Position numbers and translations under genes: made by a program. Shown here piece after piece: positions 1,986 through 47,946 of a stretch of 64,000 bases of DNA. Location: contig CBDCKW010000005.1 of assembly GCA_965218435.1 (NCBI GenBank), forward strand, positions 448,001 to 512,000. Reading direction: 5' to 3'. The number at the start of each line of letters is the position of its first letter. Within the stretch, counting starts at the first letter, position 1. Under the pieces are notes generated by a model. That model had not been told where the DNA came from. It ran no database searches and saw only the letters and a program-made list of their open reading frames with translations. The stretch is from Truepera sp. (GTDB lineage Bacteria > Deinococcota > Deinococci > Deinococcales > Trueperaceae).

Positions 1986-2121
1986 CCTGAGTTACACTGA
2001 TCTGAAAAGCATACCCTCGCATCGCCGTTTGAAGTGATTTCTGGAGCAGTGCCACCTCAATAAAACATCCCTCAGAAAATTTGGTCGGGACGAGAAAACC
2101 GAGTCTGAAACAGTTTAGTCA

Positions 2122-3850
2122 AGATACCGTTGCCGAACTAAGCTGCGAGCCTAGCAAAACGTGAGACACGAGTTTTCGAGCGAGGTTTATAATCAAACCA
2201 GGCTGCTAAGCGTGTCACATTAATGGCCGTAGCTATAGCAACGTTCTGGAACTGCATTTTGGATTGCCCAAAATAGCGGGAGCGCCGCAAGCCAAATGCT
2301 CTAACGCCTTGCGACAAAGTGCCCTCGATACCCGAACGTTTGCTATAAATCGCGTGCCACTCGGATGTTTGTTGGTTGCGTCGGGCCGCTTGGAGTGCTT
2401 CATGCTTCTCTTGCGGTTTGAAAGCGATAGCCCGTGGATCTTTCGTTGAGCGGTGGCAACGCGCACGCTGCTCACACGAAAAACAGTCTGCTTTAGCGAA
2501 CAACATATAGATAAGCTCATTGCCGTTTCGTTTATCAATACGCTCCGACCAGTACACGCTTTTCTTATCGTTGGGACAAGTCACCTGCTCAGTCTCCCAA
2601 TTGATGGCGAAGTCGTTGATACTGTAGGCTCCTTCGGTCTTGGCTTGCCAACGGTGATTCGCGGGCAACGGGCCACACAACGTCACGTCATAGCTTTTCT
2701 GGCTCTCTACTAATAGTTCAGTGTCCATGTAGCCAACATCAACGAGATGCACGTCTGGCAGCAGGTTCCTACTTTCCAAGTTGCGGTGAAGGTCAGGAAT
2801 GGATTGGTTATCGTGGCGACTAGGGGTATCGGTGGCCACATGGGTGATGAGGTGGACAAAGTCTTCCTCACACGTTTCGGTAACATGGACTTTGTAGCCC
2901 TTCCAGCGCAGGTCGCGTTTGCTGCCCAGCCGCGCGTCGGGGTCACAGGGTGAAGCGAGAAGGATGCTGTTCGGAGGCAAGTCTTTAGCTTCGCGCCAGC
3001 GCACCTCACCATCATCGAGCCAAAACTGCTGTACCCACATGCGCCTGAGTATCTCTATGGCCTCTAACTCATCTAGTCTCGTTGATGTTTCGGAAGCGTA
3101 AACCTCCGCTAGCAGGTGAAATCCATCTTCGCCGGTGATCTTGGCAAGCTCGCTAATTTTCTCTTTGCCCTTGGGTAATCTGAAACTTTCAAATCGTTCA
3201 CCATAACGCTCAAACCAGCTGTCGGGAACCCGTGATCTTAGCCACTCCGGTTCGACTGTAGCTAGCGTATTGAGCGCAAGCCGCATCGTTTCAACCAGGT
3301 TGCCGAGCCGATTCAAGCTTCTGACTTTGGACAGTACATGGGTCGAGTCGGTTCTTGCCTGACCACGTTTCTTAATCAATCCTTTCGCCGCACAAGCAGC
3401 GAGAAGTTGGTCCAGCAACCGATGCTCGGCGTTGCCCTGAAGCAGTCGTTTGCGAAACTTGCTGAGTACTGTAAAGTCAAAACCGGAATCGGTGAGTTCT
3501 AGGCCCAGTGCATACTTCCAGTCGATGCGGTTTCTGACAGCATCAGCAGCTTCTCGGTCGGGCAAATCTTCGGCAAATTGCAGCACGGTAACTACTGCTA
3601 AGCGCCAGGGTGCCTCAGCTGCTTGTCCTACAACCGGGTACAAGTCGGCGAACAGCTCATCGTGATAAATGCCCGCTAGCTCATCGCGTAAATTCATCGC
3701 TAAATTGCCTCTGCGATAGATGGCTTTGGCAACGCGGACGGTTTCTTCAGGGACAAACAGCGGGTTGCTGGGCTGAAGCGACATAGTGGCCTCCTAAGTC
3801 GCTTCAGTTTAGATTCGCCAACTTCGCTTTTTGATTCGGCAACGGTATCT
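2122..3850 (-). mobile_element. IS1182-family insertion sequence, copy A
   Basis: Perfect 16-bp terminal IRs AGATACCGTTGCCGAA (2122..2137) / TTCGGCAACGGTATCT (3835..3850) enclosing one transposase. Confidence 0.9.
2138..3784 (-). CDS. IS1182-family DDE transposase
   Basis: 548 aa; DUF772-like N-terminus (LPDREAADAVR.RIDWKYALGL..GFDFTVLSKFR), DSTH, GYKVHVTE, DVGY, Cys cluster, RSGIEGTLSQ. Confidence 0.92.
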   Translation of the reverse strand: MSLQPSNPLFVPEETVRVAKAIYRRGNLAMNLRDELAGIYHDELFADLYPVVGQAAEAPWRLAVVTVLQFAEDLPDREAADAVRNRIDWKYALGLELTDSGFDFTVLSKFRKRLLQGNAEHRLLDQLLAACAAKGLIKKRGQARTDSTHVLSKVRSLNRLGNLVETMRLALNTLATVEPEWLRSRVPDSWFERYGERFESFRLPKGKEKISELAKITGEDGFHLLAEVYASETSTRLDELEAIEILRRMWVQQFWLDDGEVRWREAKDLPPNSILLASPCDPDARLGSKRDLRWKGYKVHVTETCEEDFVHLITHVATDTPSRHDNQSIPDLHRNLESRNLLPDVHLVDVGYMDTELLVESQKSYDVTLCGPLPANHRWQAKTEGAYSINDFAINWETEQVTCPNDKKSVYWSERIDKRNGNELIYMLFAKADCFSCEQRARCHRSTKDPRAIAFKPQEKHEALQAARRNQQTSEWHAIYSKRSGIEGTLSQGVRAFGLRRSRYFGQSKMQFQNVAIATAINVTRLAAWFDYKPRSKTRVSRFARLAA

Positions 3851-3995
3851 GGGCAATACTGTTTCAGGTGACTTAAGACTTTATCCATAAATTAAGATGA
3901 ACTCTAAGCTAAAAACTGGTGCGAACTGTTGGGCACACCACTGCCGGTAGGACCGGTAAGTCAGATGTGTTAGCAAGAAGTGCTAACATATCAGC

Positions 3996-4208
3996 ATGAC
4001 TGACGAACTCCGCGCTCAAATTAGGCAGTATCTCAGAGATCATGGTCTTACACAAACCGCACTTGCGATGGAAGTCGGTACCGACCGGCACACCATTAAC
4101 CGTGCACTCAGCACCAACGGGGCCGTACCGCCCATCTGGCAGAAGATGCTAGACGCTCTTGGCCTTGAGCTCGTGTTACGCCCTAAGACTGCAAGCAGGA
4201 CGACGTGA
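3996..4208 (+). CDS. small XRE/Cro-type HTH protein
   Basis: 70 aa, GLTQTALAMEVGTDRHTINRAL HTH and LDALGLELVL tail. Confidence 0.75.
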   Translation: MTDELRAQIRQYLRDHGLTQTALAMEVGTDRHTINRALSTNGAVPPIWQKMLDALGLELVLRPKTASRTT

Positions 4209-4242
4209 GGTGTATGGCAGGGGTGCTGCCACAAGGTGAGTT

Positions 4243-4854
4243 ATGGCGTTAATGCGTTATCCTGTTCGGTTTTACGGGGACCCGATTCTCCGCCGCCGCT
4301 CTGCTCCCGTTCGTGACCTTAAGGCTGACTTTGCTGTACCCGGCTTCGAGGCTGTCAGCTTGCCGCAGCTCACACGCAACATGCTCGAGACGATGTACGA
4401 GGCGCACGGTGTTGGTCTCGCCGCGCCGCAGGTCGGGCTACCCCTTCGCCTGTTTGTTGCTGCCGAATATGCCGACGACGAAAACGAGGGCACCACCTCG
4501 CTCAAGAGCCGGGTGTTGCGCGAGTTCGTGATAGTCAATCCGGTGCTCGAGATTCTCGATCCCTATAAAGAGGCGCGCTATGAAGACGGGTGCCTGTCGA
4601 TACCCGGCGTTTACGAGCCGGGGGTCTTGCGGGAGCGAGCACTGCGTATCCACTATTACGACGAGCATGGCGAACAGCATGTCGTCGAAGCGGACGATTA
4701 CCTTGCACGCGTCTTCCACCACGAATACGAACACCTTGATGGCAAGCTGTATCTCGACCAGCTACCGCCGAGTGTGAAGCAAAAACATCGCGTGTATCTC
4801 GCATCATTACAGCGACAAGCTAAGGCGTACCTGAAGCAACTGGCCGAGCGATAA
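4243..4854 (+). CDS. def: peptide deformylase with variant motifs
   Basis: YGDPILR, GVGLAAPQVG, DGCLSIPG, HHEYEHLDG. Confidence 0.9.
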   Translation: MALMRYPVRFYGDPILRRRSAPVRDLKADFAVPGFEAVSLPQLTRNMLETMYEAHGVGLAAPQVGLPLRLFVAAEYADDENEGTTSLKSRVLREFVIVNPVLEILDPYKEARYEDGCLSIPGVYEPGVLRERALRIHYYDEHGEQHVVEADDYLARVFHHEYEHLDGKLYLDQLPPSVKQKHRVYLASLQRQAKAYLKQLAER

Positions 4855-4893
4855 CAATCATCGTGCAACGCTAGCCCTGCAACCGAATAGCGA

Positions 4894-5037
4894 AGATACC
4901 GTTGCCGAGCTCCTATGACGGCACTTCACGAGATGAAGGATGAAGCAGGAAAGTCGGCTAGCACGGTCGAATGCGATGCTCGAAATCCTGAATCATATGC
5001 TTTGGGAGATAATAAGCTTAATTCGGCAACGGTATCT
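4894..5037. mobile_element. MITE 1, non-autonomous IS1182 derivative (144 bp)
   Basis: Ends AGATACCGTTGCCGA / TTCGGCAACGGTATCT match the IS1182 A/B IRs; no ORF inside. Confidence 0.85.
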
Positions 5038-5042
5038 TCGCT

Positions 5043-5154
5043 AGATACTGTTTCCTAATTGCATATAGGCTTGAACTGCTTAACCCCAACTCCCGTGGAT
5101 AAGGGCATTTATACCGTCTGACCAACTATGTATCTGAATTAGGAAACAGTATCT
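5043..5154. mobile_element. MITE 2, IS1182-like ends (112 bp)
   Basis: Perfect 18-bp IR AGATACTGTTTCCTAATT / AATTAGGAAACAGTATCT; CTTCGCT direct repeat on both sides (5036..5042, 5155..5161). Confidence 0.8.
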
Positions 5155-5216
5155 CTTCGCTAGAGTGTTTCAACTTCCCCAAGGCTCAAACCATTTTACA
5201 GCGACCCTGCTAGCAA

Positions 5217-6143
5217 TTATGACAATGCTGGGGCTGGCACCGCCATACCCATAATGAGTTCGTGGTTCAGCATCGCTGCCGCTTTGGTACCACTGGCTGC
5301 TGCCATAATCACTGAATGCATAGGCATAACCATATCGCCCGCCGCATAGACACCAGGTACACTCGTTTGACCCAGATCATTAACAACGACCTGCAAGCCG
5401 TCATCACTCAGCGTACAACCTAGCTGCTGAGGTAAATCCCCTCGCAAACTCAGGGGGGGCCGCATAAAAACAGCCTGACGCGCCAGCTGGTGACCGTTGG
5501 AAAGATACAAGGCACTCAATTTACCCTGCTGACTTTCGTACTCGGTTACGCTGGCCTCAATGACCTTGACGCCACGGGCATGGAGATCGTCGAGCTGCTC
5601 ATCGCTTAAAGTCGTGTTCCCGCCTGTCAGCAAAACGACGTCACGGCTCCAATTTTGAATGAGCCGCACAAATCCATAACCCAGGTCACCATCACCAAGA
5701 ACAGCTAGCGGCGTGTCTCTCACCTCCCAGCCGTGGCAGTAGGGGCAGGTATAAACGCTTTTGCCCCATAGCTCACGTAAACCCGGCACATCAGGTAGGT
5801 CGTCAGATACCCCGGTTGCTAACAGCAAGCGCTCGGCGCTTAGGGATCCCCCCTGAGCTAAGGTAAGGTGAAACTTCCCCTTGCTCCCGGTTACTTTAGA
5901 TACGCGAGTTTTGAGAAAGTGAACTTCATAAGGCGCGAGCTGCTCGCGTCCAATCCGGCGCAGCTCATCGGGCGGCGTGCCATCACGGGTATAGATATTA
6001 TGGGCGTGGCTTGCTGGGGCGTTACGGGGGGTACTGTCATCTATAACGGCGACATTGCGGCGAGAACGTCCTAAAGCGAGTGCTGCGCTTAACCCCGCAT
6101 TGCTCCCGCCAATGACAGCGACTTCTACGTGTGATAAATTCAC
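5217..6143 (-). CDS. TrxB-like NAD(P)/FAD-dependent oxidoreductase
   Basis: VAVIGGSNAGLSAA, LLLATG, CPYCHGWE, TSVPGVYAAGD; GTG start at 6143 follows AGGAG RBS. Confidence 0.88.
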   Translation of the reverse strand: MNLSHVEVAVIGGSNAGLSAALALGRSRRNVAVIDDSTPRNAPASHAHNIYTRDGTPPDELRRIGREQLAPYEVHFLKTRVSKVTGSKGKFHLTLAQGGSLSAERLLLATGVSDDLPDVPGLRELWGKSVYTCPYCHGWEVRDTPLAVLGDGDLGYGFVRLIQNWSRDVVLLTGGNTTLSDEQLDDLHARGVKVIEASVTEYESQQGKLSALYLSNGHQLARQAVFMRPPLSLRGDLPQQLGCTLSDDGLQVVVNDLGQTSVPGVYAAGDMVMPMHSVIMAAASGTKAAAMLNHELIMGMAVPAPALS

Positions 6144-6397
6144 GGCTACTCCTACAAAACAAGCAAAAAGTGACGATAACAAGCCGAAATGACCTGATTT
6201 TGATAAATGCGTAGATTGTTAGGGGAGAAGGTCAGCTAGAGTCTTGCAATTTATAGATGCACCGTGAGCAAGCGCACCTTGCCGTCGGAACGGCGTAGGC
6301 GAGTTTGTTACGAAGCGCATTTGAGAACACGTTCTCACTATAACAAGGTTTCGTGTGCGCGGTGTGTTATGAGGCGATACGCGCAACAAAATAGGAA

Positions 6398-8126: not shown

Positions 8127-8144
8127 AGCGAAGAGTGTTTCAGA

Positions 8145-8290
8145 GGTGAACCGAACAGCCCGAGCCGGGCGGGGTCAGTTGACCGTGACCGAGCAGGAAA
8201 GGCACGAGGTCAATGTGGATTTCGTCGAGCAGGCCAGCGTCGAGACATTGCTGCACGATAGTCGTACTGGCGACCGCGACGTTCTTGCTA
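8145..8290 (-). pseudogene. internal fragment of a RibD_C/DHFR-family gene
   Basis: Own translation KNVAVASTTIVQQCLDAGLLDEIHIDLVPFLLGHG. Confidence 0.7.
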
Positions 8291-8377
8291 CCCAAAACCG
8301 TGGCCGGGCTGCCCTTCGTTGCCTTGCCTGCTTGATGCTCACCCGCTTCTTTACCTCCTGAAAGTGCAGAACACGGT

Positions 8378-8941: not shown

Positions 8942-9004
8942 GTGCTACCTCCAATTGAATTTCGGCGATCATAAAAACAGCTTAAAATCCTAAGCGCTCA
9001 AATT

Positions 9005-9031
9005 CGCAACAGTCTAGCCACGCGTGTTTCA
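9005..9031. repeat. array junction site (degenerate)
   Basis: CGCAACAGTCT-AGCCA-CGCGTGTTTCA. Confidence 0.6.
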
Positions 9032-9039
9032 GTGAATAC

Positions 9040-9833: not shown

Positions 9834-10167
9834 GACTTTCCTCCTTGACGAGTTCTTTGACGTAGCTGTCGAACTGATCGAGCCTTTTTTCCCACAGTCC
9901 AAGCTGCACCTTCAGCCACTGCTCGGCGCTTTCAACTTGTTCGGGTACAAGATGAAACGTCCGTATCCGGCCTACTTTTTCTGAGCGAACCAGTCGGCCC
10001 CTTTCTAGTACCTGAAGGTGCTGCATAAACGAAGGTAGTGCCATCTCAAACGGCTCGGCCAGCTCGGTTACTGAGGCAGGGCCACGACTAAGCCGCTCTA
10101 AGACTTGCCGCCGGGTCGGGTCGGCAAGGGCCTGAAAAGTCTGGTCGAGGTTCTGATAGTTAGGCAC
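9826..10167 (-). CDS. ArsR/SmtB-family regulator
   Basis: [35 protein letters not shown]...LV...K.GR.R. Confidence 0.9.
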
Positions 10168-10211
10168 TTGCCTAAGCGTACATCAAAAGGACACTTAGGT
10201 CAATACCTAAG
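10160..10211. promoter_or_regulatory. probable ArsR operator, two related palindromes
   Basis: TTAGGCA-CT-TGCCTAA (10160..10175, over the start codon) and CTTAGGT-CAAT-ACCTAAG (10194..10211). Confidence 0.65.
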
Positions 10212-10318
10212 CGTTGGCTCAGGCTTAATCAGCTCGTGTGCTTAATGAAAAAATCTTCTGCCGATAACCCAACCGCTATGCTGCTTTAGATCATGCTCTG
10301 CGGCTGTTTTTAACGCTG

Positions 10319-10756
10319 TCATGATTGGGTAGATAGATCCGAAACAAAACGGAGCTGTACCTCATCGGCTTCACTCAAACCCGACTGCTCAAAGGCTTCT
10401 TGCAGCGTGTCGTAGCGAGCGACGTAACTAACCTGGCCGTTCTCAACCCGGTAATGAGAGGCGAGCTTAGCTTGGCTCACGATGTCACCGGTCATCACGT
10501 CACCGGTGGTTAGGTCGCGCCAGACGCCGAGTTGTTCATTGACCACCGTTTTACCTCGAGCGAAACTACGACGCGTTTCTAGGCTCAACCCTGCTTGAGC
10601 AAGCCAGTCTCTAAGCATGTCGCGTCCGAAGGCGGAGCCGCGCGGCCCGACCAGCTCTATCTCAGGGTGCGAAAGGTCGAGTAGGCGCTCTACCTCAGCT
10701 GTGTTGACGGTTTCTTCCCAAATACGGACAATCTCAGCAGCTTCTTGAAGTTTCAT
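10319..10756 (-). CDS. SnoaL/NTF2-like protein
   Basis: IVR.W.E.VN......LL.L.HPEIEL.GPRG...G...LR.W pattern. Confidence 0.7.
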   Translation of the reverse strand: MKLQEAAEIVRIWEETVNTAEVERLLDLSHPEIELVGPRGSAFGRDMLRDWLAQAGLSLETRRSFARGKTVVNEQLGVWRDLTTGDVMTGDIVSQAKLASHYRVENGQVSYVARYDTLQEAFEQSGLSEADEVQLRFVSDLSTQS

Positions 10757-10795
10757 CGTTTCTCCAGTCTTTGACTTGTCTCAATAACAAGCTTA

Positions 10796-10816
10796 ATGTA
10801 TGTATAGCACATACAT
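10796..10816. promoter_or_regulatory. probable MarR operator in divergent promoter
   Basis: ATGTATGT-ATAGC-ACATACAT perfect 8-5-8 palindrome. Confidence 0.6.
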
Positions 10817-10852
10817 ATTTGTTTTGCACGTACTTGATGATATCATTGAACT

Positions 10853-11365
10853 GTGAACTCAGAAAAAGTTGTCCAGTTACCCGACAATGCGTTGCCAAGT
10901 GACGCCGGAAAAGCGCTGTTCCGGTTGGGGAGATTCCTCAATAAGCAGTCCTTACCCGAATCGCTAAAAACTCGAACCGCAGGGGGGATAGAGCTTTCAC
11001 AGATTTTGACGGTTCAAGCTGTTGAAGCGGTTCTCGAGACCGGTCAAGAGGCAACTGTGGGCGCGGTCGCGCTGAACCTTGGTCTCGAGCCCTCAACCGC
11101 CAGCCGTATAGTCGCGGAAGCTGTACAGCATGGCCTGTTAACCCGTGGTGCGTCTCAAGCTGACGGACGGCGCAGCCTACTTGAACTCACGCAGGCAGGG
11201 CGGAGCTTGGCAGAAGATGCCGCTGACTATCAGCGGTCGGTCTTCGAGTCGGTTACAGATAGTTGGGCAGCTGAGGAACGTAAAGAGTTCGCACGCCTGT
11301 TCGTCATGTTTGTCGAAAGATTAGCTAGTTTGCCCACAAGTGAAGGTATACAAGAAGCAAAATAG
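10853..11365 (+). CDS. MarR-family regulator
   Basis: TVGAVA..LGLEPSTASRIV...V..GLL.R....DGRR..L.LT.AG; TAG stop lies inside the junction site. Confidence 0.88.
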   Translation: MNSEKVVQLPDNALPSDAGKALFRLGRFLNKQSLPESLKTRTAGGIELSQILTVQAVEAVLETGQEATVGAVALNLGLEPSTASRIVAEAVQHGLLTRGASQADGRRSLLELTQAGRSLAEDAADYQRSVFESVTDSWAAEERKEFARLFVMFVERLASLPTSEGIQEAK

Positions 11366-11379
11366 CGAAGCGTGTTACA
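11353..11379. repeat. array junction site
   Basis: AGAAGCAAAAT-AGCGA-AGCGTGTTACA. Confidence 0.65.
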
Positions 11380-11520
11380 GCCCAAACGGGTTATCGAGTT
11401 AGCTGCTCTTTATGCGCGCCATGTCGTCGGGGTTCGTGACCAAGGCGAGCCGTTACCACCGCTTTGGTCCCAACCCAGAACCAGACTTCAGCAGCGATTT
11501 CCATCTGGCGCGTCGTGAGC

Positions 11521-12054
11521 TTAAGCAGGCAGGTAGGTCAACCTGAGCACATCCTCGCCAATCCGATCATGAGCCACAAGGCGGAGCGGCGGCCGGGGTC
11601 CGGCAAAATAGGGCTTGCCGTGACCTAGCACGACCGGGTGCAGGTAGATTCGGTACTCATCGATCAGACCAAGGTCAGTGAGGTTTTGCGCCAAGTTCGG
11701 GCCAGCGACTTCGATCTCCCCGTCGCGCTCAGCCTTCAGCTCGCGGATCGTGCCCTCGAGATCAGCCTTAACAAGTCTGGCGTTGGGGCCGACCGACGTG
11801 AGCGAGCGTGAGACGACCCATTTCGGCTGGTTTCGCCACGCCGCTGCGAAGGCGTGTTCCGCTGCGTCCCATTCAGGCTGATCGTCATCCCAGTAACGCA
11901 TGAGCTCATACACATTGCGACCGTAGACACTGCCCACCTGCCTCTGAGCCTCTTCGATGAAGTGGCGGAAGAGCAGAGGGCTTGGCACGGGCAACGCCGT
12001 ATGATCGACGTAGCCGTCCAATGATTGATTCATCCCGAACACGAGCTTAGCCAT
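11521..12054 (-). CDS. dihydrofolate reductase/RibD C-terminal family protein
   Basis: MNQSLDGYVD, YGR.VYELM.YW, PKWVVSRSL, GLIDEYRIYLHPVVLG.G. Confidence 0.9.
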   Translation of the reverse strand: MAKLVFGMNQSLDGYVDHTALPVPSPLLFRHFIEEAQRQVGSVYGRNVYELMRYWDDDQPEWDAAEHAFAAAWRNQPKWVVSRSLTSVGPNARLVKADLEGTIRELKAERDGEIEVAGPNLAQNLTDLGLIDEYRIYLHPVVLGHGKPYFAGPRPPLRLVAHDRIGEDVLRLTYLPA

Positions 12055-12211
12055 TGCCTGTACCCAATAAGGTTTTCATATGTGGGTTACCTCCCAAGGT
12101 CAAACCTAGCAAGATTACGACTGCGCTGCTTCTTGAATCTTGCGCGTTTAAGGAACTCGCTTGTTTATCTTGTTCGTCAAGCGGTTGGCTAGCACGCCTG
12201 TGAATGAGAGT

Positions 12212-12248
12212 AGAGAAGAAACACTCTTCGCTAGAGTGTTTCTTCTCT
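12212..12248. repeat. array junction site, perfect 16-5-16 palindrome
   Basis: AGAGAAGAAACACTCT-TCGCT-AGAGTGTTTCTTCTCT. Confidence 0.85.
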
Positions 12249-13129
12249 CATGACAGGTAACGAACGATACGTTCACACCGAGCAGGGTCACAAGTGAGAC
12301 CGACACTTAGCCCCCACAGCCAGTAGTCCACGCAGCGAACGTAGGTCCATAAACGCGTCAGCTCGTCACCTAGCTCCGCAGCTTCAACCAACGTTCGGAA
12401 ATGCGTCTCGAAACCACCTTGCGCTTCGATATCCTCCAAGCGACACCAGAAAAGCTGGGCGACCCCAAATTCAGGCTTACCCACCACAACTTTCGGATCG
12501 ACAACTAGCCACGGTTCGCGCTCGCTTGCAAGGGTATCAAGGTAATGAAGGTCGTAGTTCACCAGCAGGGTACCCGTGCTATCAGCCAGCTGAGCGGTAA
12601 GCTCACAGGTGTGGTCAAGAACTTGTCTGGGCAGAGCTTGACCGTATTTTGCCCAACGCTGCGGCATCATCTCGAGGGCTTCTTGCCCCCACTCCCAAGT
12701 CGTCATGACGCCAACCGGAGCAGGAACGGCTAGGCGGCGCAGTAATTGACCTGCTACGGGTATGGCCTCTTTAATGAGAATGTCGTTGAGAGAACGTTTG
12801 AAGTCCAACCGCTCTAATACCATCGCGCCGTGTTGTGGCGAGGTTTCCAGTAACCGAACAGCTCCCCGACCGCCCCAGATGGCGAGTGCGAGAGATTCGG
12901 TGCGAGTAGAGCCGTCCAGCCAAGAGACTTTGAGAACGCACGCTTCCTCTCCTCTCTGGACCGGAAAAGCTAAACTTAGACCACCGTGCATCACGGGACC
13001 ATCAACCCGCAAATCCCACTGCCGACACAGCATCTCAACAAGGGCCGGTAAGTGGTCGAGCCATGCCTGGCCCGCTACGCCCTCACGAGCTACCGTATCG
13101 GCAGCAAAGCGTCTGGGAACTACAATCAT
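12248..13129 (-). CDS. aminoglycoside/hydroxyurea phosphotransferase, APH(6)-like
   Basis: W.GRGAVRLL, M.LERL, DLHY.D.L, W.VVDPK...G.PEF. Confidence 0.85.
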   Translation of the reverse strand: MIVVPRRFAADTVAREGVAGQAWLDHLPALVEMLCRQWDLRVDGPVMHGGLSLAFPVQRGEEACVLKVSWLDGSTRTESLALAIWGGRGAVRLLETSPQHGAMVLERLDFKRSLNDILIKEAIPVAGQLLRRLAVPAPVGVMTTWEWGQEALEMMPQRWAKYGQALPRQVLDHTCELTAQLADSTGTLLVNYDLHYLDTLASEREPWLVVDPKVVVGKPEFGVAQLFWCRLEDIEAQGGFETHFRTLVEAAELGDELTRLWTYVRCVDYWLWGLSVGLTCDPARCERIVRYLS

Positions 13130-13173
13130 AGAGGTACTTTACAGCATCGATTTGCGTGTGCTCAGTAGAAATC

Positions 13174-13200
13174 TGAAATGGAATAGCGAAGAGTGTTTCA
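13174..13200. repeat. array junction site
   Basis: TGAAATGGAAT-AGCGA-AGAGTGTTTCA; the right arm AGAGTGTTTCAACTT is identical to 5162..5176. Confidence 0.8.
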
Positions 13201-13216
13201 ACTTGTCTTCAGATGT

Positions 13217-13663
13217 TCAGTTATCTTCAAACCAGTCTTCAAGTGCTTTCCACTCGTTCTCTCTGACGGGAAAGTTCGTTCCTCTTGCCTGGGCAAAGAT
13301 CGAGAGATTCCATAAGTCGGGGTCACACTGCAAAAAATCGCGGTAGAGCGGCTTCTCGACGATGACCTTTTCATATTTTACTTTGACACGCGGATGGACT
13401 CTGAGACCGTCGTTAGGATCTGTCCAGTAGCTTCGTCCCTGCACGGAATCCGGGCGCACAACGGGATCGGTCGTGACAATTCCTAAAGCGTAGACGCCTG
13501 CCTTTTTACCGGAGATCCAGATCAGCACTCTATCGCCCATTTTGATTTTTGCATGGTGCTGTTTGCAGTTCCAGAACTCCTCGGCTTCTACGGCTAAAGA
13601 GGTGTGGATGTCGTAGAGGTTCGGATTTGCCTGAAATATCCAGGTAGCTTGGCTGCTCGTCAT
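13217..13663 (-). CDS. EVE-domain protein
   Basis: WIFQANP..YD, W, IK.GDRVLIWISG..AGVYA.G, L.I....GTNFPV...EW; ATGA overlap with the upstream gene. Confidence 0.8.
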   Translation of the reverse strand: MTSSQATWIFQANPNLYDIHTSLAVEAEEFWNCKQHHAKIKMGDRVLIWISGKKAGVYALGIVTTDPVVRPDSVQGRSYWTDPNDGLRVHPRVKVKYEKVIVEKPLYRDFLQCDPDLWNLSIFAQARGTNFPVRENEWKALEDWFEDN

Positions 13664-14628
13664 GCTTGGTTTTCCTCTGGTAAAGCATCGAGGGAGGTTA
13701 ATTCTCGTCCGTCTACGGCGATGTACCTCGGGTAAGGAGGCAAGACGTCGCGTCCGTAGAAGTGGGGTATTTCCGAAGGGTTAACGGTGCGGCCTTGCCA
13801 AGGCAGGGGTGGGGCGTACATGATGGCCGCTTCACGCTCAACGCATAAGAGTGACGACATCAGGGTAGCGTCGTCGTCTAGGTGATAGCGGTGCAACTGT
13901 GGGAGTTGTGTGGTGACACCCAAACCGTGATTGATAAGGAAGGTCTGGGTTGCCAACATTGACGCCCTCGTCCATAGACGTTCGTGGTCGGTGGGGAGCA
14001 AGATGTACCCTGCCGACCGCACACTGTTTGTAAGTTCGCACCCTCGTGTGATGAAGAGGCGTGCGCTCGCACCCGAATTGCTGGCTCCGTAGGATGGGTT
14101 GGTATAAAACGCGTCGAAGGTACCGATAAGTTCTTTTGGAGGCGGATCGAACACGTTATAAAGCCTGCCTGCAAACCACTCTGAGAAATGATGCCCTTCG
14201 GCGAATGTCCTGGCGACCTCGAGGAGACAGTCGTCAAAATCGAGTAGCGCCATCTGTGCTGGACCCCTAAGTAGGCCGTGGCTACTGAGTAGACCCAGGA
14301 GTAGACTGGTTCCGTCATGATCGCCGACAAACACGACGCGCTTGCCCGCCAGATGCGGCGCAATCAGCTTGACCTGACATAAGAGGTCGCTTCCGCGCAT
14401 CGGAATCTGATCGAAGTCCCTTAGCGACTCCGGGCGGGCATCTTCCCAAAGTGCGAGCAGCTGCTCCTCTTCGGGCGTGACTTGCCGATAAACAGCGTTC
14501 TTCAGAAGACTGCCGAGTGCTGCGTAAGCGCCCGTTCCTCCTGCTACCGTTACGTCTGAGGATGACGATATATGAGCAGGCATCCTAGGATGCCTGCTCA
14601 TATTAAGTCCTTGGTCGGGCGACCTCAT
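13660..14628 (-). CDS. BpsA/DUF43-like class I SAM-dependent transferase
   Basis: RPESLRDFDQIPM, GKRVVFVGDHDGTSL, LLDFD, FDAFYTNPSYG, LFITRG. Confidence 0.75.
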   Translation of the reverse strand: MRSPDQGLNMSRHPRMPAHISSSSDVTVAGGTGAYAALGSLLKNAVYRQVTPEEEQLLALWEDARPESLRDFDQIPMRGSDLLCQVKLIAPHLAGKRVVFVGDHDGTSLLLGLLSSHGLLRGPAQMALLDFDDCLLEVARTFAEGHHFSEWFAGRLYNVFDPPPKELIGTFDAFYTNPSYGASNSGASARLFITRGCELTNSVRSAGYILLPTDHERLWTRASMLATQTFLINHGLGVTTQLPQLHRYHLDDDATLMSSLLCVEREAAIMYAPPLPWQGRTVNPSEIPHFYGRDVLPPYPRYIAVDGRELTSLDALPEENQA

Positions 14629-15206
14629 GCGGCCGCCTCCAGATCGTCACCCTGCTGGTAGTGATCCCAGAGATTGAGCGTTTTGATCCGCATCTCGACG
14701 AGCTCGACACTGGCCCCGTACTTGCCAGCGATGTGCGCGGCACTGTCACCTCGGTAAACCGCTTTGGCGACCTCTTTTGAAGGAAGTAGAGCGGCAGCAG
14801 CCGTAAACTTGGCTTCTTGCTCTTCTTCCTGATAGTAGGCGGCGCGTCCGCTGGAGCCGATGCTCACAGGGGTATGTCCGTGGTAGTGATGTGCAACCTC
14901 TTCGAGAAGTGTAACGCGGGCACGCTCAGGCGTCTGTTGACGGTTTAGCACTACAAAGAGTTTCCCTATAGGCAGTTCGTGGCTCATCCCAGACCACTCT
15001 TTGGCGTCTAAACGGTCCAACTCCGCCAGAACCTCTTCAGATAAGTTAGGAATCTCGTCGTGATATTTCAACACGACGCCTAGCTCGGCTTGCAAAGTTA
15101 AGGGGTCAAAAGGCTCATAGGATCCGACGCCTGCTTTTGCCCTAAGTGACCTGGCGCTCTCCTCGTAGTGATGCATGATGTCTTTAGTCAGTTGGGGCTT
15201 GGGCAC
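14625..15206 (-). CDS. ImmA/IrrE-family metallopeptidase-like protein (EExxH variant)
   Basis: WSG, LN..Q..ER.RVTLLEEVAHHY.GH, EQEA...AAA.LLP, C-terminal HTH (IA.KYG.S.E.V.MR). Confidence 0.8.
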   Translation of the reverse strand: MPKPQLTKDIMHHYEESARSLRAKAGVGSYEPFDPLTLQAELGVVLKYHDEIPNLSEEVLAELDRLDAKEWSGMSHELPIGKLFVVLNRQQTPERARVTLLEEVAHHYHGHTPVSIGSSGRAAYYQEEEQEAKFTAAAALLPSKEVAKAVYRGDSAAHIAGKYGASVELVEMRIKTLNLWDHYQQGDDLEAAA

Positions 15207-15223
15207 GTCATCTCCTTATCTCC

Positions 15224-15838
15224 TTAAGCAGTTTCTTCGTTCGCAGCGGCTTCATAAGCAAACTGGAACATCTGTGCAAGATTTTTAGCGGCTTTGGGGC
15301 TTAGTTTGGGATCAGCACGCAAGAAGGCAGATACCTGATGCGGCACATTCGTGGGCGGAACCATCTCTGCTAAATCCTGAGCAGTCTCTACACCACGAAG
15401 CTCTCTATGCAGATTGACCCCAAAATGCTCTTCCATCTGAAACGAGATGCCCATAGCCTCGAGGATGCGTTGTGCCCGCTCGACAGTCACGCCGTGGTAC
15501 TCATTGCGCTCGTCACGTGATACTTGCGCGTCGGATACGCCAAGCTCTTGGGCAAGTTCTTTTTGACTCCAACCTCGGGCAATACGTGCGCCGATCAGCC
15601 ACCGACCCACGCTTTCTAAGCTCTCGAGCGTCCCAAGGTCGCCCCGCTTCATGTTCTCGTAAGCCAAGACCTCCTCCTCGAGCTGGGCTCGAAACGAAAG
15701 TAAAGGATGCAGGGCGCGCTCGAGCGCGTCACCCGTCAGGCCAGCCTCTACAAGTTGGTTTCTTTGAGCCTCCAGCTGTATTTTTCCTTCCTCGAGCTGT
15801 TTGAGCATTCTTTGGTATTCGCTTTCGGTGCGGATCAT
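15224..15838 (-). CDS. XRE-family HTH regulator with N-terminal helical extension
   Basis: MIRTESEYQ helical N-terminus; LIGARIARGWSQKELAQELGVSDAQVSRDERNEY. Confidence 0.85.
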   Translation of the reverse strand: MIRTESEYQRMLKQLEEGKIQLEAQRNQLVEAGLTGDALERALHPLLSFRAQLEEEVLAYENMKRGDLGTLESLESVGRWLIGARIARGWSQKELAQELGVSDAQVSRDERNEYHGVTVERAQRILEAMGISFQMEEHFGVNLHRELRGVETAQDLAEMVPPTNVPHQVSAFLRADPKLSPKAAKNLAQMFQFAYEAAANEETA

Positions 15839-16380
15839 CTTAGACCTCCTTCCTTTTGTAGTAAGACGACCCCCTTCTGGGCAAAGGTGGCGCGTTGTAA
15901 TCGAAACGCTGAGGGGAACGTCAAGGGTTGACCGTAGGGATCGGTGATCCCTGAAAACTGATCAAAGTGGGGGAAGAGTTCGACCCGGTAACGGTGCCAC
16001 ATGGGGAGCTGCTTTTTGATATGCCCCCGATAAGGTCGCCGCGTTGCCGGATCCCAAGTCCAGACCTTATGGGGATCGAGAGCGTTGAGCTGCCGCGTGA
16101 GATCGTCTAAGGCAACCGCGTCACAAGTAAAGTAGCCGTCGATATCATTGGGATGAGCTTTATCTTCGACAAAAGAACCGTCTAGTACGACTTCAGCAAT
16201 TCCTACCTCCCATAACTGCCTGACAAGAATCTCGGCCTGGTTGACCAATTGCAAGCGCCAGTCTCGATCCCAGCCTTCGCGGTCGTTCTCTACTAAGGAC
16301 GATTCACGGAGTTGGGAGAAGGTGGTGGGGTAGTCACCTGCTGGTAGCAGGCCCCGGTTATCGAAGTCAGGAATCGTCAC
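15835..16380 (-). CDS. minimal nucleotidyltransferase, DUF6932-like
   Basis: IPDFD.RGLLP.GDY, LDGSFV.DK.HPNDID (polbeta GS/DxD motif), C-terminal KGVV.L. Confidence 0.75.
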   Translation of the reverse strand: MTIPDFDNRGLLPAGDYPTTFSQLRESSLVENDREGWDRDWRLQLVNQAEILVRQLWEVGIAEVVLDGSFVEDKAHPNDIDGYFTCDAVALDDLTRQLNALDPHKVWTWDPATRRPYRGHIKKQLPMWHRYRVELFPHFDQFSGITDPYGQPLTFPSAFRLQRATFAQKGVVLLQKEGGLR

Positions 16381-16389
16381 TTCGATATA

Positions 16390-16408
16390 TTATCATAAAT
16401 GATGATAA
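16390..16408. promoter_or_regulatory. candidate operator of the five-gene operon
   Basis: TTATCAT-AAATG-ATGATAA palindrome in AT-rich DNA 10 bp upstream of the GTG. Confidence 0.5.
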
Positions 16409-16513
16409 ATTACTAGACGATAAACATTTATGTTAATTTCTGGATTGTTAAACGCTGTAGCGTTGGCAGCAGGTGTAGATTGCTCAAGCAGAACTACAAC
16501 CATCTGCTCAGTT

Positions 16514-47943: not shown

Positions 47944-47946
47944 TAA

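What the first reader, a model, noticed from the sequence alone, without database searches (positions are those of the whole stretch)
2105..16463. End-to-end gene-cassette array delimited by a conserved ~27-bp quasi-palindromic junction and occupied by IS1182 elements
Seen: most block boundaries in this 14 kb read arm / 5-nt spacer / arm. 2106 TGAAACAGTTT-AGTCA-[IS A]; [IS A]-GGGCA-ATACTGTTTCA 3866; 4878 TGCAACCGAAT-AGCGA-[MITE1]; [MITE1]-TCGCT-[MITE2]; [MITE2]-(CT)TCGCT-AGAGTGTTTCA 5172; 6382 CGCAACAAAAT-AGGAA-[IS B]; [IS B]-AGCGA-AGAGTGTTTCA 8142; 9005 CGCAACAGTCT-AGCCA-CGCGTGTTTCA; 11353 AGAAGCAAAAT-AGCGA-AGCGTGTTACA; 12217 AGAAACACTCT-TCGCT-AGAGTGTTTCT; 13174 TGAAATGGAAT-AGCGA-AGAGTGTTTCA; a half site TTAAACGCTGT-AGCGT at 16448..16463. 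Between sites lie self-contained modules (HTH+def; TrxB-like; DHFR-like; DUF4287 to MarR; DHFR-like; APH-like; five-gene operon). Most point the same way, and several stop codons lie in or next to an arm. I found no convincing copy of the site in the remaining 47 kb. Established: some IS1182 members target palindromes; integron attC arrays, pdif modules and IS231 mobile insertion cassettes are the known cassette systems, and this site matches none of them. Inference: an integron-like capture/shuffling platform, driven either by the IS1182 transposase or by a tyrosine recombinase (the site also reads 10-7-10) whose sites IS1182 parasitises.
Basis: partly seen in the sequence, partly recalled or inferred. 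Interest (0 to 1): 0.92.

Follow-up and report, generated by a model that had tools for sequence, protein, structure and literature searches.

The report
Cluster of IS1182 insertion target sites
A 14-kb stretch of an accessory replicon holds seven copies of a short DNA site that one family of jumping genes likes to insert into, so the unrelated gene blocks between them look like cassettes, but nothing yet shows that the blocks themselves move.

Summary
Every quoted junction is at its coordinates. The conserved 16-mer (AGCGA + AGAGTGTTTCA) occurs 5 times in the window, all between 8127 and 13200, against 0.63 expected. It is rare in the other 4.8 Mb. Two intact 1729-bp IS1182-family elements (79% identical) and two MITEs sit exactly in the 5-nt centre of three sites; four sites are empty.

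The site is best read as the preferred target of this IS clade. An arm lies 5 nt outside 21 of 30 recognised IS/MITE ends in three genomes and three metagenome contigs, against 2 of 80 chance IR look-alikes. The arms resemble the elements' own terminal repeats, placed tip to tip. Five of seven sites cannot form a hairpin, so recognition is by sequence. No recombinase gene lies near the array.

The integron-like cassette reading is only partly supported. In its favour:
- One module has a diverged second copy whose homology starts exactly at the spacer.
- A real passenger-carrying, transposase-less element of the same IS clade sits on the chromosome and is missing from two congeners.

Against it, no array module was found elsewhere bounded by two arms, and relatives' homologues lack the site.

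Verdict: a new variant of a known kind, of moderate interest.

The parts
2106..2121 (.). Site 1, left arm TGAAACAGTTT + spacer AGTCA
   Evidence: Read. With its partner at 3851-3866 it rebuilds an 11-bp stem palindrome (DNA fold -10.3 kcal/mol).
2122..3850 (-). IS A, 1729 bp, IS1182 family. It has perfect 16-bp terminal IRs (AGATACCGTTGCCGAA) and a 548-aa transposase gene at 2138-3784.
   Evidence: Pfam DDE_Tnp_1_6 4e-25, DUF772 and DDE_Tnp_1. IRs. 79% DNA identity to IS B. Plasmid relatives at 46-49% aa identity are annotated 'IS1182 family transposase'.
3851..3866 (.). Site 1, spacer GGGCA + right arm ATACTGTTTCA
   Evidence: The arm shares ATACTGTTTC (10 of 10) with the MITE2 and G005 IS terminal repeat AGATACTGTTTCC.
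3867..4877 (+). Module 1: HTH protein (3996-4208) and peptide deformylase (4243-4854). Both are on the + strand, opposite to most other modules.
   Evidence: Pfam HTH_31 and Pep_deformylase 1.6e-38. GC 0.554.
4878..4893 (.). Site 2, left arm TGCAACCGAAT + spacer AGCGA
   Evidence: The same 11-mer recurs beside an empty site in G002 (L045) and beside a metagenomic IS copy (L173). A 10-of-11 copy lies next to the TrxB-like homologue in G002.
4894..5037 (.). MITE1, 144 bp, with IS-type IRs and no ORF
   Evidence: IRs. Diverged copies at C7:11302-11460 (71%) and C5:517916-518072 (68%).
5038..5042 (.). 5-nt spacer TCGCT between the abutting ends of MITE1 and MITE2
   Evidence: Two element ends lie tip to tip 5 nt apart, the same geometry as the site.
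5043..5154 (.). MITE2, 112 bp, IRs AGATACTGTTTCCTAA
   Evidence: A second copy at C5:543265-543375 is flanked by a perfect 5-bp direct repeat CGGCG and by arms.
5155..5172 (.). Site 2, 7-nt spacer CTTCGCT + right arm AGAGTGTTTCA
5173..6381 (-). Module 2: TrxB-like flavoprotein disulfide reductase (5217-6182)
   Evidence: Pfam Pyr_redox_2 1.4e-29. A homologue in G002:C35 (70%) covers 5250-6344 only, and the flanks differ on both sides.
6382..6397 (.). Site 3, left arm CGCAACAAAAT + spacer AGGAA
6398..8126 (-). IS B, 1729 bp, IS1182 family, with perfect 16-bp IRs and a 548-aa transposase gene at 6414-8060
   Evidence: Pfam. 80% aa identity to the IS A transposase. Closest outside copies are 82-85% aa in metagenome contigs L173-L175 and 67% in three identical copies in G005.
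8127..8142 (.). Site 3, spacer AGCGA + right arm AGAGTGTTTCA (consensus 16-mer)
   Evidence: Identical to 13185-13200.
8143..9004 (-). Module 3: RibD_C-domain (DHFR-like) protein (8378-8941)
   Evidence: Pfam RibD_C 9.8e-12. Only 31% identical to the module 5 protein.
9005..9031 (.). Site 4, empty: CGCAACAGTCT-AGCCA-CGCGTGTTTCA
   Evidence: No hairpin beyond shuffles. The G003 homologue of the neighbouring DUF4287 gene has no site after its stop codon.
9032..11352 (.). Module 4: DUF4287 (9040-9327 -), AHSA1/SRPBCC (9348-9902 -), ArsR (9826-10167 -), SnoaL-like (10319-10756 -) and MarR (10853-11365 +)
   Evidence: Pfam. The stretch 9373-10214 has 73-74% copies at C5:28304 and C5:270382 and in G003; none is bounded by arms.
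11353..11379 (.). Site 5, half site: AGAAGCAAAAT-AGCGA-AGCGTGTTACA. The MarR stop codon TAG is at 11363-11365.
   Evidence: The left arm is coding sequence and matches the arm consensus poorly.
11380..12216 (-). Module 5: RibD_C-domain protein (11521-12054)
   Evidence: Pfam. A second copy at C5:518072-518752 (85.6%) starts exactly at spacer + arm and ends at the start codon. There the site is occupied by a MITE.
12217..12243 (.). Site 6, empty: AGAAACACTCT-TCGCT-AGAGTGTTTCT. The spacer is inverted and the perfect palindrome extends over 12212-12248.
   Evidence: 20 of 22. DNA fold -16.3 kcal/mol.
12244..13173 (-). Module 6: APH(6)/hydroxyurea-kinase-like phosphotransferase (12248-13129)
   Evidence: Pfam APH_6_hur 5.6e-24.
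13174..13200 (.). Site 7, empty: TGAAATGGAAT-AGCGA-AGAGTGTTTCA
   Evidence: No hairpin.
13201..16447 (-). Module 7: five-gene operon of EVE (13217-13663), BpsA_C-like (13660-14628), M78/IrrE-like peptidase (14625-15206), HTH_3 (15224-15838) and DUF6932 (15835-16380)
   Evidence: Pfam. It is bounded by a convincing site on the left only.
16448..16463 (.). Claimed half site TTAAACGCTGT-AGCGT: not counted
   Evidence: Not among the matrix hits listed at 12.5 or more. It is a small palindrome of its own.

Best explanation
The region is an accretion zone on a 685-kb accessory replicon. In it the preferred insertion target of one clade of IS1182-family elements occurs seven times.

The target is about 27 bp. 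It has a well conserved 16-mer (5-nt spacer, consensus AGCGA, plus arm AGAGTGTTTCA), preceded by a looser inverted arm (xGxAAC...T). The arms look like the elements' own terminal inverted repeats (AGATACYGTTKCC) set tip to tip, 5 bp apart.

I infer that the 548-aa DDE transposase reads the arms with the same surface that reads its IRs. It would then join the two IS ends at the edges of the 5-bp spacer, which is duplicated in the cleanest cases.

Two full-length IS copies and two MITEs occupy three sites; four sites are free. An inserted end plus the old arm recreates the arm-5 bp-end geometry, so later insertions land right beside earlier ones (MITE1-TCGCT-MITE2). Elements, and DNA brought in with them, pile up end to end.

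The genes between the sites are ordinary accessory genes with their own regulators. Their cassette-like look is a by-product.

Shown: the sequences, the clustering, the family of the IS, the arms at a fixed distance from ends in several genomes, and some perfect 5-bp duplications. Inferred: recognition of the arms by the transposase, IR mimicry as the reason, and the accretion history.
For: 1. Family. Both 548-aa ORFs have DDE_Tnp_1_6, DUF772 and DDE_Tnp_1. 134 plasmid records hold relatives covering at least 80% of the query; 18 of the 25 rows listed are annotated IS1182 family transposase.

2. Arms at a fixed distance. One search examined 107 IR-like matches. I picked out by hand 30 ends of recognised IS, MITE or remnant copies, most of them among those matches: 17 in G000, 8 in G005, 1 in G003 and 4 in metagenome contigs.
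- 21 of 30 have at least 6 of 11 matches to AGAGTGTTTCA exactly 5 nt outside the tip, and 17 of 30 have at least 7 of 11.
- The background is 2.9% and 0.65%.
- Among 80 chance IR look-alikes from other phyla the counts are 2 and 0.
- Of the 9 misses, 2 abut another element's end and 3 have the arm at an offset of 6-7.

3. Duplication of the spacer. Perfect 5-bp direct repeats flank the MITE at C5:543265-543375 (CGGCG) and one of three identical G005 copies (GTGTA). TCGCT lies on both sides of MITE2 with 2 extra nt, and the MITE at C5:517931 shows 4 of 5.

4. Sequence, not structure. IS B and the MITEs sit in sites with no hairpin potential.

5. IR mimicry. ATACTGTTTC is shared 10 of 10 between the arm at 3856 and the MITE2/G005 IR. 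AAATTCGCAACAGTCT at 9000-9015 resembles the IRR AATTCGGCAACGGTATCT with small deletions.

6. A trait of the wider family. In a distant clade (39% aa), seven loci that I read by eye (L188, L190, L191, L194, L195, L199, L202; L190 and L194 have identical flanks) show GCCGCC-like and GGCGGC-like arms about 3 nt from the ends, with matching 2-3-nt repeats in some.

7. Literature. IS1272/TnSha1 of the same family insert into inverted-repeat targets (PMC4923244 passages; PMC5678879 sections 22 and 29, whose Fig 13 model includes a route that duplicates only the loop). IS30 prefers nearly palindromic hot spots and positions next to its own IRs (PMC9333248 passages).
Against: - Spacers on the two sides agree poorly in most elements. 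Of 11 elements with both flanks read, 2 are perfect, 1 is perfect with a 2-nt offset, 1 has 4 of 5, 2 have 3 of 5 (IS A, IS B) and 5 have 2 of 5 or fewer. The 5 include two of the three identical, hence recent, G005 copies and MITE1, whose flanks are reverse complements.
- Target preference alone does not explain why four unoccupied sites with nearly the same spacer and the same polarity stand in 4.2 kb, exactly between unrelated gene blocks.
- The 16-mer is better kept (16 of 16 between 8127 and 13185) than the IS copies (79%) or the MITE copies (68-71%). This asks for selection or a copying process that the model does not name.
- Isolated full sites with the same spacer in G002 (L037, L038, L045) have no explained origin.
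- The homology break of the RibD_C copies exactly at the spacer fits a cassette boundary at least as well.
Confidence: 0.52

Rival explanations
1. Tandem passenger elements. Each block between two sites is, or was, a non-autonomous unit whose ends are the arms. The well-kept AGAGTGTTTCA would be a variant left IR and the loose xGxAAC...T a degenerate right IR. The IS1182 transposase moves these units in trans. Each unit inserted into the 5-bp spacer of an existing junction and duplicated it, so one ancestral site grew into an end-to-end array. This is an integron-like platform without an integrase.
For: - Geometry. Seven consecutive blocks are each bracketed by inward-facing IR-like arms, all sites have the same polarity, and the spacers are nearly uniform: AGCGA 4 times, its complement TCGCT 3 times, AGCCA and AGGAA. 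Spacers at independent IS insertions elsewhere vary: TACTG, CGGCT, GTGTA, AACCT, AGGAT, CAGTA.
- The clade does make passenger elements. C9:1641310-1642448 is a 1139-bp unit with IS-type IRs and subterminal sequence. It carries a MarR gene and a weak SnoaL-like gene and no transposase. In G005 and G004 the two flanking genes are joined by about 30 nt instead.
- The two RibD_C copies share the unusual arm variant AGCGTGTT(A/T)CA, and their homology starts at the spacer.
- The left arm of 9005 with its preceding bases resembles a decayed IRR.
- IS30 is reported to excise any segment delimited by its IRs from a junction-bearing replicon (PMC9333248 passage). TnSha1 moves a neighbour gene with a 69%-identical surrogate IR (PMC4923244 passage).
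Against: - No array module was found anywhere bounded by two arms. RibD_C copy 2 has no arm within 450 nt upstream and no matrix hit before C5:543376.
- Homologues in relatives of modules 2, 4 and 5 carry no recognisable site. G002 has only weak arm-like strings near the TrxB-like gene.
- The arms are only 11 nt, about 2 nt shorter than the IR between tip and core, and nothing is conserved beyond them.
- All repeated parts are 14-30% diverged, so there is no sign of recent movement.
- Among the 121 family genomes scanned for the 16-mer, the one cluster I looked at (three hits within 10 kb in G005) was not made of real sites. Clusters were not searched for systematically.
- Module 1 points the other way, and module 4 holds five genes in both directions.
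- IS1272 gave no circular form in the one study that looked (PMC5678879 passage in section 21).
Confidence: 0.28
2. The 27-bp sequence is the crossover site of a site-specific recombinase (Xer-like or another tyrosine or serine enzyme acting in trans). That enzyme shuffles the modules, and the IS1182 elements merely parasitise its sites.
For: - The site has two inverted arms around a short asymmetric spacer, and the spacer is found in both orientations (12228 against the others). This is what a recombination core looks like.
- Modules flanked by Xer sites are known on Acinetobacter plasmids (PMC6449649 and PMC7399989, abstracts in the search listing only).
- A partial tyrosine integrase lies about 0.5 kb from the arm and MITE on contig C7.
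Against: - No intact recombinase lies in the 64-kb window. The only Phage_integrase match is a 121-aa fragment with a stop at window 54987-55181, 38 kb away. The only resolvase on C5 is at 523.7 kb and has a stop inside.
- The spacer is 5 nt, not the 6 of dif-type sites (the 6 is recalled).
- The left arm is too degenerate in five of seven sites to bind a second monomer.
- The arms track the IS terminal repeats, and they flank IS ends in other genomes at sites with quite different spacers. That ties them to the transposase.
Confidence: 0.05
3. The motif is a host feature, such as an operator for one of the many local HTH, MarR or ArsR regulators, or a transcript-end signal. The IS simply tends to land in it.
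For: - The sites lie in intergenic DNA, 4-16 nt after stop codons in three cases (9040, 12248, 13217) and 44-163 nt upstream of start codons.
- The array is rich in regulators.
- Single sites in G002 are intergenic.
Against: - None of the sites is listed as terminator-like, and there is no T run. Five of seven have no hairpin.
- No Rfam family matches.
- About 15 copies per genome, nearly all beside IS or MITE ends or in this array, is an odd regulon.
- Homologous genes in relatives lack the motif.
Confidence: 0.07

Closest known systems
IS1272 and TnSha1/TnSha2 (IS1182 family, staphylococci)
   Same: - Same IS family by transposase domains.
- They insert into inverted-repeat targets, often just downstream of genes.
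- They can carry a neighbouring gene by using a weakly similar surrogate IR.

Sources: PMC4923244 passages; PMC5678879 abstract, sections 22 and 29.
   Different: - There the targets share no primary sequence, part or all of the hairpin is lost, and no target duplication is made.
- Here a 16-mer is conserved, both arms survive on either side of the insert, and the 5-nt centre is duplicated in the cleanest cases.
- Here five of seven sites cannot form a hairpin.
- The transposases here are under 50% identical to any relative found on plasmid records.
IS30 hot-spot and IR targeting
   Same: - A dual preference for nearly palindromic hot spots and for positions next to the element's own IRs.
- The spacing in an IR-IR junction equals the length of the target duplication.
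- Junctions make further rearrangements likely.

Source: PMC9333248 passages. This is the best model for how the site may work.
   Different: - A different family.
- 2 bp there against 5 bp here.
- IS30 is shown to go through circles and dimers. For the IS1182 family the one test I read found no circle (PMC5678879 passage).
- Nothing here is shown by experiment.
REP-targeting insertion sequences (IS1397, ISKpn1, ISPpu9, IS621)
   Same: The IS sits in the centre of a short extragenic palindrome and does so repeatedly (PMC1525189 passages; PMC12288879 abstract in the search listing).
   Different: - REPs number over 100 per genome. This site has about 15 copies, mostly on one replicon.
- The families reported to target REPs are IS3, IS110, IS4, IS256 and IS5; IS1182 is not named (PMC1525189 passage).
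- Here the target resembles the IS ends.
Integron cassette arrays (attC, IntI)
   Same: Short sites at the boundaries of unrelated gene blocks, mostly in one orientation, with the conserved part at the 3' side of most genes.
   Different: - No IntI or any tyrosine recombinase beside the array.
- The site is 27 bp and mostly unable to fold. attC sites are longer folded structures (recalled).
- The blocks carry their own regulators and promoter room.
pdif (Xer) modules of Acinetobacter plasmids
   Same: Accessory gene modules on a plasmid-like replicon, bounded by 27-28-bp sites with two arms.
   Different: - The spacer is 5 nt, not 6, and the sites all have the same polarity rather than alternating (both pdif features are recalled; of the papers I saw only listing abstracts).
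- The arms match IS ends.
- Likeness to dif was not tested.
Mobile insertion cassettes (IS231-type MICs) and passenger-carrying IS derivatives
   Same: C9:1641310-1642448 fits the kind: cargo genes between the IRs of a known IS clade, no transposase, and absent from the same spot in two congeners.
   Different: - The array modules have only 11-nt IR-like arms, with one end poorly kept, and no second copy bounded by both.
- MIC papers were seen only as listing abstracts.

Membership tests
IS1182 family (IS A, IS B) | Single DDE transposase with the DDE_Tnp_1_6 / DUF772 architecture | tested here: met
   PF13751 at 4e-25 and 1.5e-24, PF05598 and PF01609 in both 548-aa ORFs.
IS1182 family (IS A, IS B) | Relatives named as the family by curated annotation | tested here: met
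   142 plasmid records match; 18 of the 25 rows listed are annotated 'IS1182 family transposase'. All records are below 60% identity and the listed rows are 45.8-49.1%. ISfinder itself could not be consulted.
IS1182 family (IS A, IS B) | Terminal inverted repeats and a length within the family's range (1.3-2 kb, recalled) | tested here: met
   perfect 16-bp IRs; both elements are 1729 bp.
IS1182 family (IS A, IS B) | Some members target palindromic sequences | tested here: met
   for this and a distant clade. The statement about the family is quoted from a review by PMC4923244 and PMC5678879; I did not see the review itself.
MITE (4894-5037, 5043-5154) | Short, non-coding, with the IRs of an autonomous IS, in several diverged copies | tested here: met
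Mobile insertion cassette (C9:1641310-1642448) | Cargo genes between the IRs of a known IS, no transposase, and an insertion polymorphism | tested here: met
   (MarR and a weak SnoaL_2); in G005 and G004 the flanks are about 30 nt apart in the alignment, against 1191 in G000. A target duplication is not clear (2 of 5).
Mobile insertion cassette (array modules) | Both ends are IRs that the transposase can use, and the same unit is seen elsewhere with both ends | tested here: inconclusive
   The arms are IR-like, but they are 11 nt and shortened. Only one module has a second copy, and that copy has one arm. Use by the transposase cannot be tested here.
Integron | IntI-type tyrosine recombinase next to the array | tested here: not met
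   none in the array. The nearest match is a fragment 38 kb away.
Integron | attC-type folded recombination sites | tested here: not met
   5 of 7 sites fold no better than shuffles. The site length is 27 bp.
pdif / Xer module | Two 11-bp arms around a 6-bp centre, related to dif | tested here: not met
   The centre is 5 nt. Likeness to this genome's dif was not tested.
pdif / Xer module | Recombination by XerC/XerD | not testable with these tools
   Needs an assay.
REP / BIME | Hundreds of copies spread over the genome | tested here: not met
   about 15 convincing half sites, nearly all on C5 and C7.
Intrinsic terminator | GC-rich hairpin followed by a T run | tested here: not met
   none of the 12 terminator-like hits is a site; only two sites fold.

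The most novel reading that the evidence does not exclude
The array is a working, transposase-only cassette platform. The arm-5 bp-arm junction is both the target and the product of insertion. Any DNA bounded by arms can therefore be cut out and put in by the IS1182 transposase acting in trans, much as IS30 handles segments bounded by its IRs and IR-IR junctions. A single site thus grows into an integron-like array of unrelated gene modules without any site-specific recombinase.
Probability: 0.2. Interest if true: 0.85.

Novelty: new variant of a known kind. Interest (0 to 1): 0.5.

Why it matters
Target choice in the IS1182 family is poorly understood. The only detailed work I found reports hairpin targets with no sequence consensus and loss of the hairpin. 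This clade shows a different rule:
- a conserved sequence that mimics the element's own ends;
- insertion in its centre with both halves kept;
- a passenger-carrying derivative in the same genome.

That gives a simple, testable recognition rule: the arms are read like IRs. It also explains how such elements stack end to end.

If the bolder reading holds, it would be a way to build ordered arrays of accessory genes with a DDE transposase alone. That bears on how megaplasmids of stress-tolerant bacteria gather resistance-type and regulatory genes.

Tried and rejected
- **Megablast of 2100-16470 against plasmids:** no match.
- **Scan of genome contigs with the IR pattern ATTNGGMAACRGTATCT:** None of the 80 fetched has an arm beside it. 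The first try had too few specified bases.
  - G000 has 9 hits against 1 for the control pattern; G005 5 against 0; G002 4 against 0; G003 3 against 0.
  - Most other genomes are at background, but G065 has 9 against 2 and G066 8 against 4. All of those are 2-mismatch hits that I did not examine.
  - Three hits within 10 kb in G005 were not real sites.
  - The G003:C387 hit lies inside a homology block and the G100:C17 hit inside coding sequence; the G100 one reads as the dnaA motif ETRLAIL. Short-motif hits at 2 mismatches are therefore unsafe.
- **Synteny breaks at the G002 single sites:** real, but breaks are so dense at this divergence that they prove nothing.
- **Rfam:** no family matches.
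- **Promoter and terminator scan:** nothing at the sites.
- **Reads:** only contigs were available.
  - The run X4 of 'organism A' holds 97% of the sampled words. Its contigs bridge 2106, 4878-6456, 11353, 12217 and 13174 without differences. It may be the data the assembly came from, so this is not independent support.
  - Joints 3866>11523, 5154>8131 and 5083>6398 were seen at 90% likeness with short sides. They may come from paralogous MITE loci or a second strain, and I draw nothing from them.
  - The 'goes back' joint 16643>1800 is explained by a 40-nt repeat.
  - Loose ends at 8110 and 8143 in X2, X3 and X4 show IR + spacer + arm in other contexts. This fits target preference but is not decisive.
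- **Arm travelling with the IS:** rejected, because spacers and arms differ among the three identical G005 copies. The 12 nt shared by two of them stays unexplained.
- **parS:** the arms share the heptamer TGTTTCA with the canonical parS found twice near dnaA, but in everted order and 13 nt apart. I treat this as coincidence.
- **Earlier findings of this scan:** none near the place.
- The position matrix was then built from coordinates instead.

Full report
**What was checked.** I read window 1800-17200 and laid the whole genome in the script box. The genome has 9 contigs and 4.8 Mb; the window is C5:448001-512000, and C5 is a 685-kb replicon.

**Is it more than chance?**
- The conserved right half, AGCGAAGAGTGTTTCA, with up to 3 mismatches occurs 5 times in the 64-kb window, all between 8127 and 13200. 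The expectation is 0.63, and 0 of 100 shuffles reach 5.
- Genome-wide with up to 2 mismatches there are 9 hits. Four are in the array. Three lie next to MITE ends or arms elsewhere (C5:237368, C5:518073, C7:11301). Two on the chromosome look like chance.
- Scoring all 22 arm positions, only 6 places in the genome reach 17 of 22, and 3 of them are in the array.
- A position matrix, trained on the sites and therefore circular for them, gives 8 hits of 17 or more in the array, 3 in other trained sites and 6 untrained hits in the other 4.8 Mb.
- So the motif is not a REP-like genome-wide repeat.
- Two corrections apply. Only the site at 12217 and the rebuilt IS A site can form a hairpin; the other five fold no better than shuffles. 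The claimed half site at 16448 did not reach 12.5, the lowest matrix score I listed. I count seven sites: three occupied and four empty, one of them (11353) a half site.

**The elements.**
- IS A (2122-3850) and IS B (6398-8126) are both 1729 bp, with perfect 16-bp IRs (AGATACCGTTGCCGAA). Their 548-aa ORFs carry DDE_Tnp_1_6, DUF772 and DDE_Tnp_1.
- They are 79% identical in DNA and 80% in protein, so they are not recent copies of each other.
- Plasmid-borne relatives at 46-49% identity are annotated IS1182 family transposase.
- Closer relatives are three identical copies in congener G005 (67% aa; IR AGATACTGTTTCCGAA) and three metagenome contigs (82-85% aa).
- MITE1 (4894-5037) and MITE2 (5043-5154) have the two IR flavours and have diverged copies at C7:11317-11460, C5:517931-518072 and C5:543265-543375.

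**Arms beside ends.**
- One search listed 107 IR-like matches (up to 2 mismatches) in G000 and eight loci. Most are chance.
- I picked out by hand 30 ends of recognised elements or remnants, most of them among those matches: 17 in G000, 8 in G005, 1 in G003 and 4 in metagenome contigs.
- 21 of 30 have at least 6 of 11 matches to AGAGTGTTTCA exactly 5 nt outside the tip, and 17 of 30 have at least 7 of 11. The background is 2.9% and 0.65%.
- As a negative control I used 80 chance look-alikes of the IR from unrelated organisms, fetched by the collection scan. They give 2 of 80 and 0 of 80.
- Of the nine misses, two abut another element's end (MITE1 against MITE2) and three have the arm at an offset of 6-7.
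- The arm next to the transposase-proximal end is usually the better one: TGAAACACTCT in IS B, L174, L175 and C7.

**Target duplication.** Eleven elements had both flanks read.
- Two have perfect 5-bp direct repeats: CGGCG at C5:543265-543375 and GTGTA at G005 L027.
- One is perfect with two extra bases (MITE2, TCGCT).
- One has 4 of 5 (C5:517931).
- Two have 3 of 5 (IS A, IS B).
- Five have 2 of 5 or fewer: G005 L015 and L030, L173, C7, and MITE1, whose flanks AGCGA and TCGCT are reverse complements.
- A 5-bp duplication is therefore likely but not regular. Two recent copies lacking it are unexplained.

**What the arms look like.**
- The arm at 3856 shares ATACTGTTTC, 10 of 10, with the MITE2/G005 IR.
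- The consensus arm AGAGTGTTTCA aligns to AGATACTGTTTCC with a 2-nt gap.
- The left arm of 9005 with the bases before it (AAATTCGCAACAGTCT) resembles the right IR with its subterminal bases (AATTCGGCAACGGTATCT) after small deletions.
- A site thus looks like two element ends placed tip to tip, 5 nt apart. That is exactly what MITE1-TCGCT-MITE2 is.
- A distant clade of the family (39% aa; IR GGACTCTGCTGGCGAA) shows the same plan with other letters. In seven loci that I read by eye (L188, L190, L191, L194, L195, L199, L202; L190 and L194 have identical flanks), GCCGCC-like and GGCGGC-like arms lie about 3 nt from the tips, with matching 2-3-nt repeats in some.

- For the cassette reading:
  - Module 5 (a RibD_C gene) has a second copy at C5:518072-518752, 85.6% identical. 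Its homology starts exactly at spacer + arm. The unusual arm variant AGCG... is shared. Its site is occupied by a MITE.
  - Spacers in the array are nearly uniform and all sites point the same way.
- Against it:
  - The homology of that copy ends at the start codon, and no second arm follows.
  - The RibD_C homologues in G002, G003 and G004, the DUF4287-ArsR block in G003 and the TrxB-like gene in G002 have no recognisable site beside them. G002 has only weak arm-like strings at both ends of the TrxB-like block.
  - The two RibD_C proteins of the array are 31% identical.
  - The one cluster of 16-mer hits I examined among the 121 family genomes scanned, in G005, was not made of real sites. Clusters were not searched for systematically.
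- GC of the array is 0.52-0.57 against 0.59-0.60 in the flanks.

**A real passenger element.** While listing IR-like ends I found C9:1641310-1642448.
- It is 1139 bp with IS-type IRs and subterminal sequence like that of the G005 IS. It carries a MarR gene and a weak SnoaL-like gene and no transposase.
- In G005 and G004 the two flanking genes are contiguous. The matches are 29-32 nt apart there, against 1191 nt in G000. The cargo has no DNA match in the 40 relatives searched.
- This clade therefore does give rise to transposase-less cargo elements. This raises the odds of the cassette reading but does not show it for the array. The cargo is not related to module 4.

**Recombinases.** Pfam scans of 68 ORFs across the window found no integrase or resolvase.
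- Of 23 Phage_integrase matches in the genome, the only one in the window is a broken fragment at 54987-55181.
- One partial gene lies about 0.5 kb from the C7 arm and MITE.
- The one resolvase on C5 has an internal stop and lies 5.6 kb from the site at 517.9 kb.

**Other checks.**
- No Rfam family and no terminator-like signal lies at the sites.
- Public runs gave contigs only. They confirm the assembled junctions in a run that may be the assembly's own source. They show IR + spacer + arm in other contexts. They gave joints that I cannot interpret.

**Literature, and what I saw of each.**
- PMC4923244 (passages): TnSha1 and IS1272 insert into hairpins without sequence consensus, delete part of them, and TnSha1 uses a 69% surrogate IR.
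- PMC5678879 (abstract, sections 22 and 29 part 1, passages): targets are IR structures, there are no duplications, the model includes a loop-duplicating route, and no circular form was found.
- Both quote a review for 'some IS1182 members target palindromes'. I did not see that review.
- PMC9333248 (passages): the hot-spot and IR targeting of IS30.
- PMC1525189 (passages): REP targeting in five other IS families.
- The pdif and MIC papers: search listings only.
- Searches found no description of a sequence-specific target, a 5-bp duplication or site arrays for IS1182 elements. The library lacks most subscription journals and ISfinder.

**Reading.**
- Best (0.52): the site is the sequence-specific, IR-mimicking target of this IS clade, and the array is a place where such targets and insertions have piled up.
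- Main rival (0.28): the blocks are old passenger units inserted serially into one spacer.
- Recombinase site: 0.05.
- Host motif: 0.07.
- The rest is left open.

The two leading readings differ in one testable point: whether DNA bounded only by arms is moved by the transposase.

Noticed in passing
G000 C9:1641310-1642448 (locus L209 2011-3149): A 1139-bp transposase-less element with IS1182-type IRs carries a MarR gene and a weak SnoaL-like gene. It is absent from the same intergenic spot in congeners G005 and G004. It is a mobile insertion cassette of this IS clade.
   Followed up: yes
window 13217-16380: A five-gene operon of EVE domain, BpsA_C-like, M78/IrrE-like peptidase, HTH_3 and DUF6932. 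It looks like a defence or stress module. Short contigs with 0-4 differences to it occur in two hot-spring metagenome runs and one marine run.
   Followed up: partly
G000 C5, pairs such as 28304/270382, 40704/282788, 45470/287548: Many hits on C5 come in pairs about 242,080 bases apart with identical sequence. This is either a large segmental duplication on C5 or an assembly repeat.
   Followed up: no
window 1666-1705 and 16604-16643: A 40-nt stretch, 88% identical and in the same orientation, lies on both sides of the array. It belongs to a small winged-helix (MarR-like) gene family with further copies at C5:45470, 287548 and 529865.
   Followed up: partly
G000 C9:3384981 and 3387197; window arms: Two perfect canonical parS 16-mers lie near dnaA. 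The site arms share their heptamer TGTTTCA/TGAAACA, but in everted order and 13 nt apart. This is probably coincidence.
   Followed up: partly
window 23635-34170: Two giant ORFs, one of 1971 aa with a NACHT/AAA domain and one of 1482 aa with no Pfam match, are preceded by two PIN-domain genes. This is a STAND-type, defence-like neighbourhood.
   Followed up: no
window 18830-20001, 37544-39157, 43381-43674, 46898-49325, 59312-60076: The rest of the window is crowded with other transposase genes or fragments. By their Pfam domains I read them as IS3-type, two IS200-type Y1, a DUF772 fragment, IS630-type, IS701/IS4-type and IS5-type; these family names are my reading of the domains.
   Followed up: no
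loci L015 and L030 (G005:C8): Two of three identical IS copies share 12 nt (CGGCTAGAGTGT) outside the transposase-proximal IR and have no matching repeat on the other side. This is unexplained.
   Followed up: partly
loci L188-L202 (soil-type metagenome contigs): In seven loci read by eye (L188, L190, L191, L194, L195, L199, L202; two with identical flanks), a distant IS1182 clade (IR GGACTCTGCTGGCGAA) sits inside GCCGCC-N3-GGCGGC-like palindromes, with matching 2-3-nt repeats in some.
   Followed up: partly
run X4 laid on window 1800-16700: Contig joints 3866>11523, 5154>8131 and 5083>6398 (opposite strands) in the run of 'organism A' are not in the assembly. They could come from paralogous MITE loci, a second strain or rearranged subpopulations.
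   Followed up: no
G000 C7:11974-12336: A partial tyrosine integrase gene, cut by the contig end, lies about 0.5 kb from a MITE with a consensus arm.
   Followed up: no
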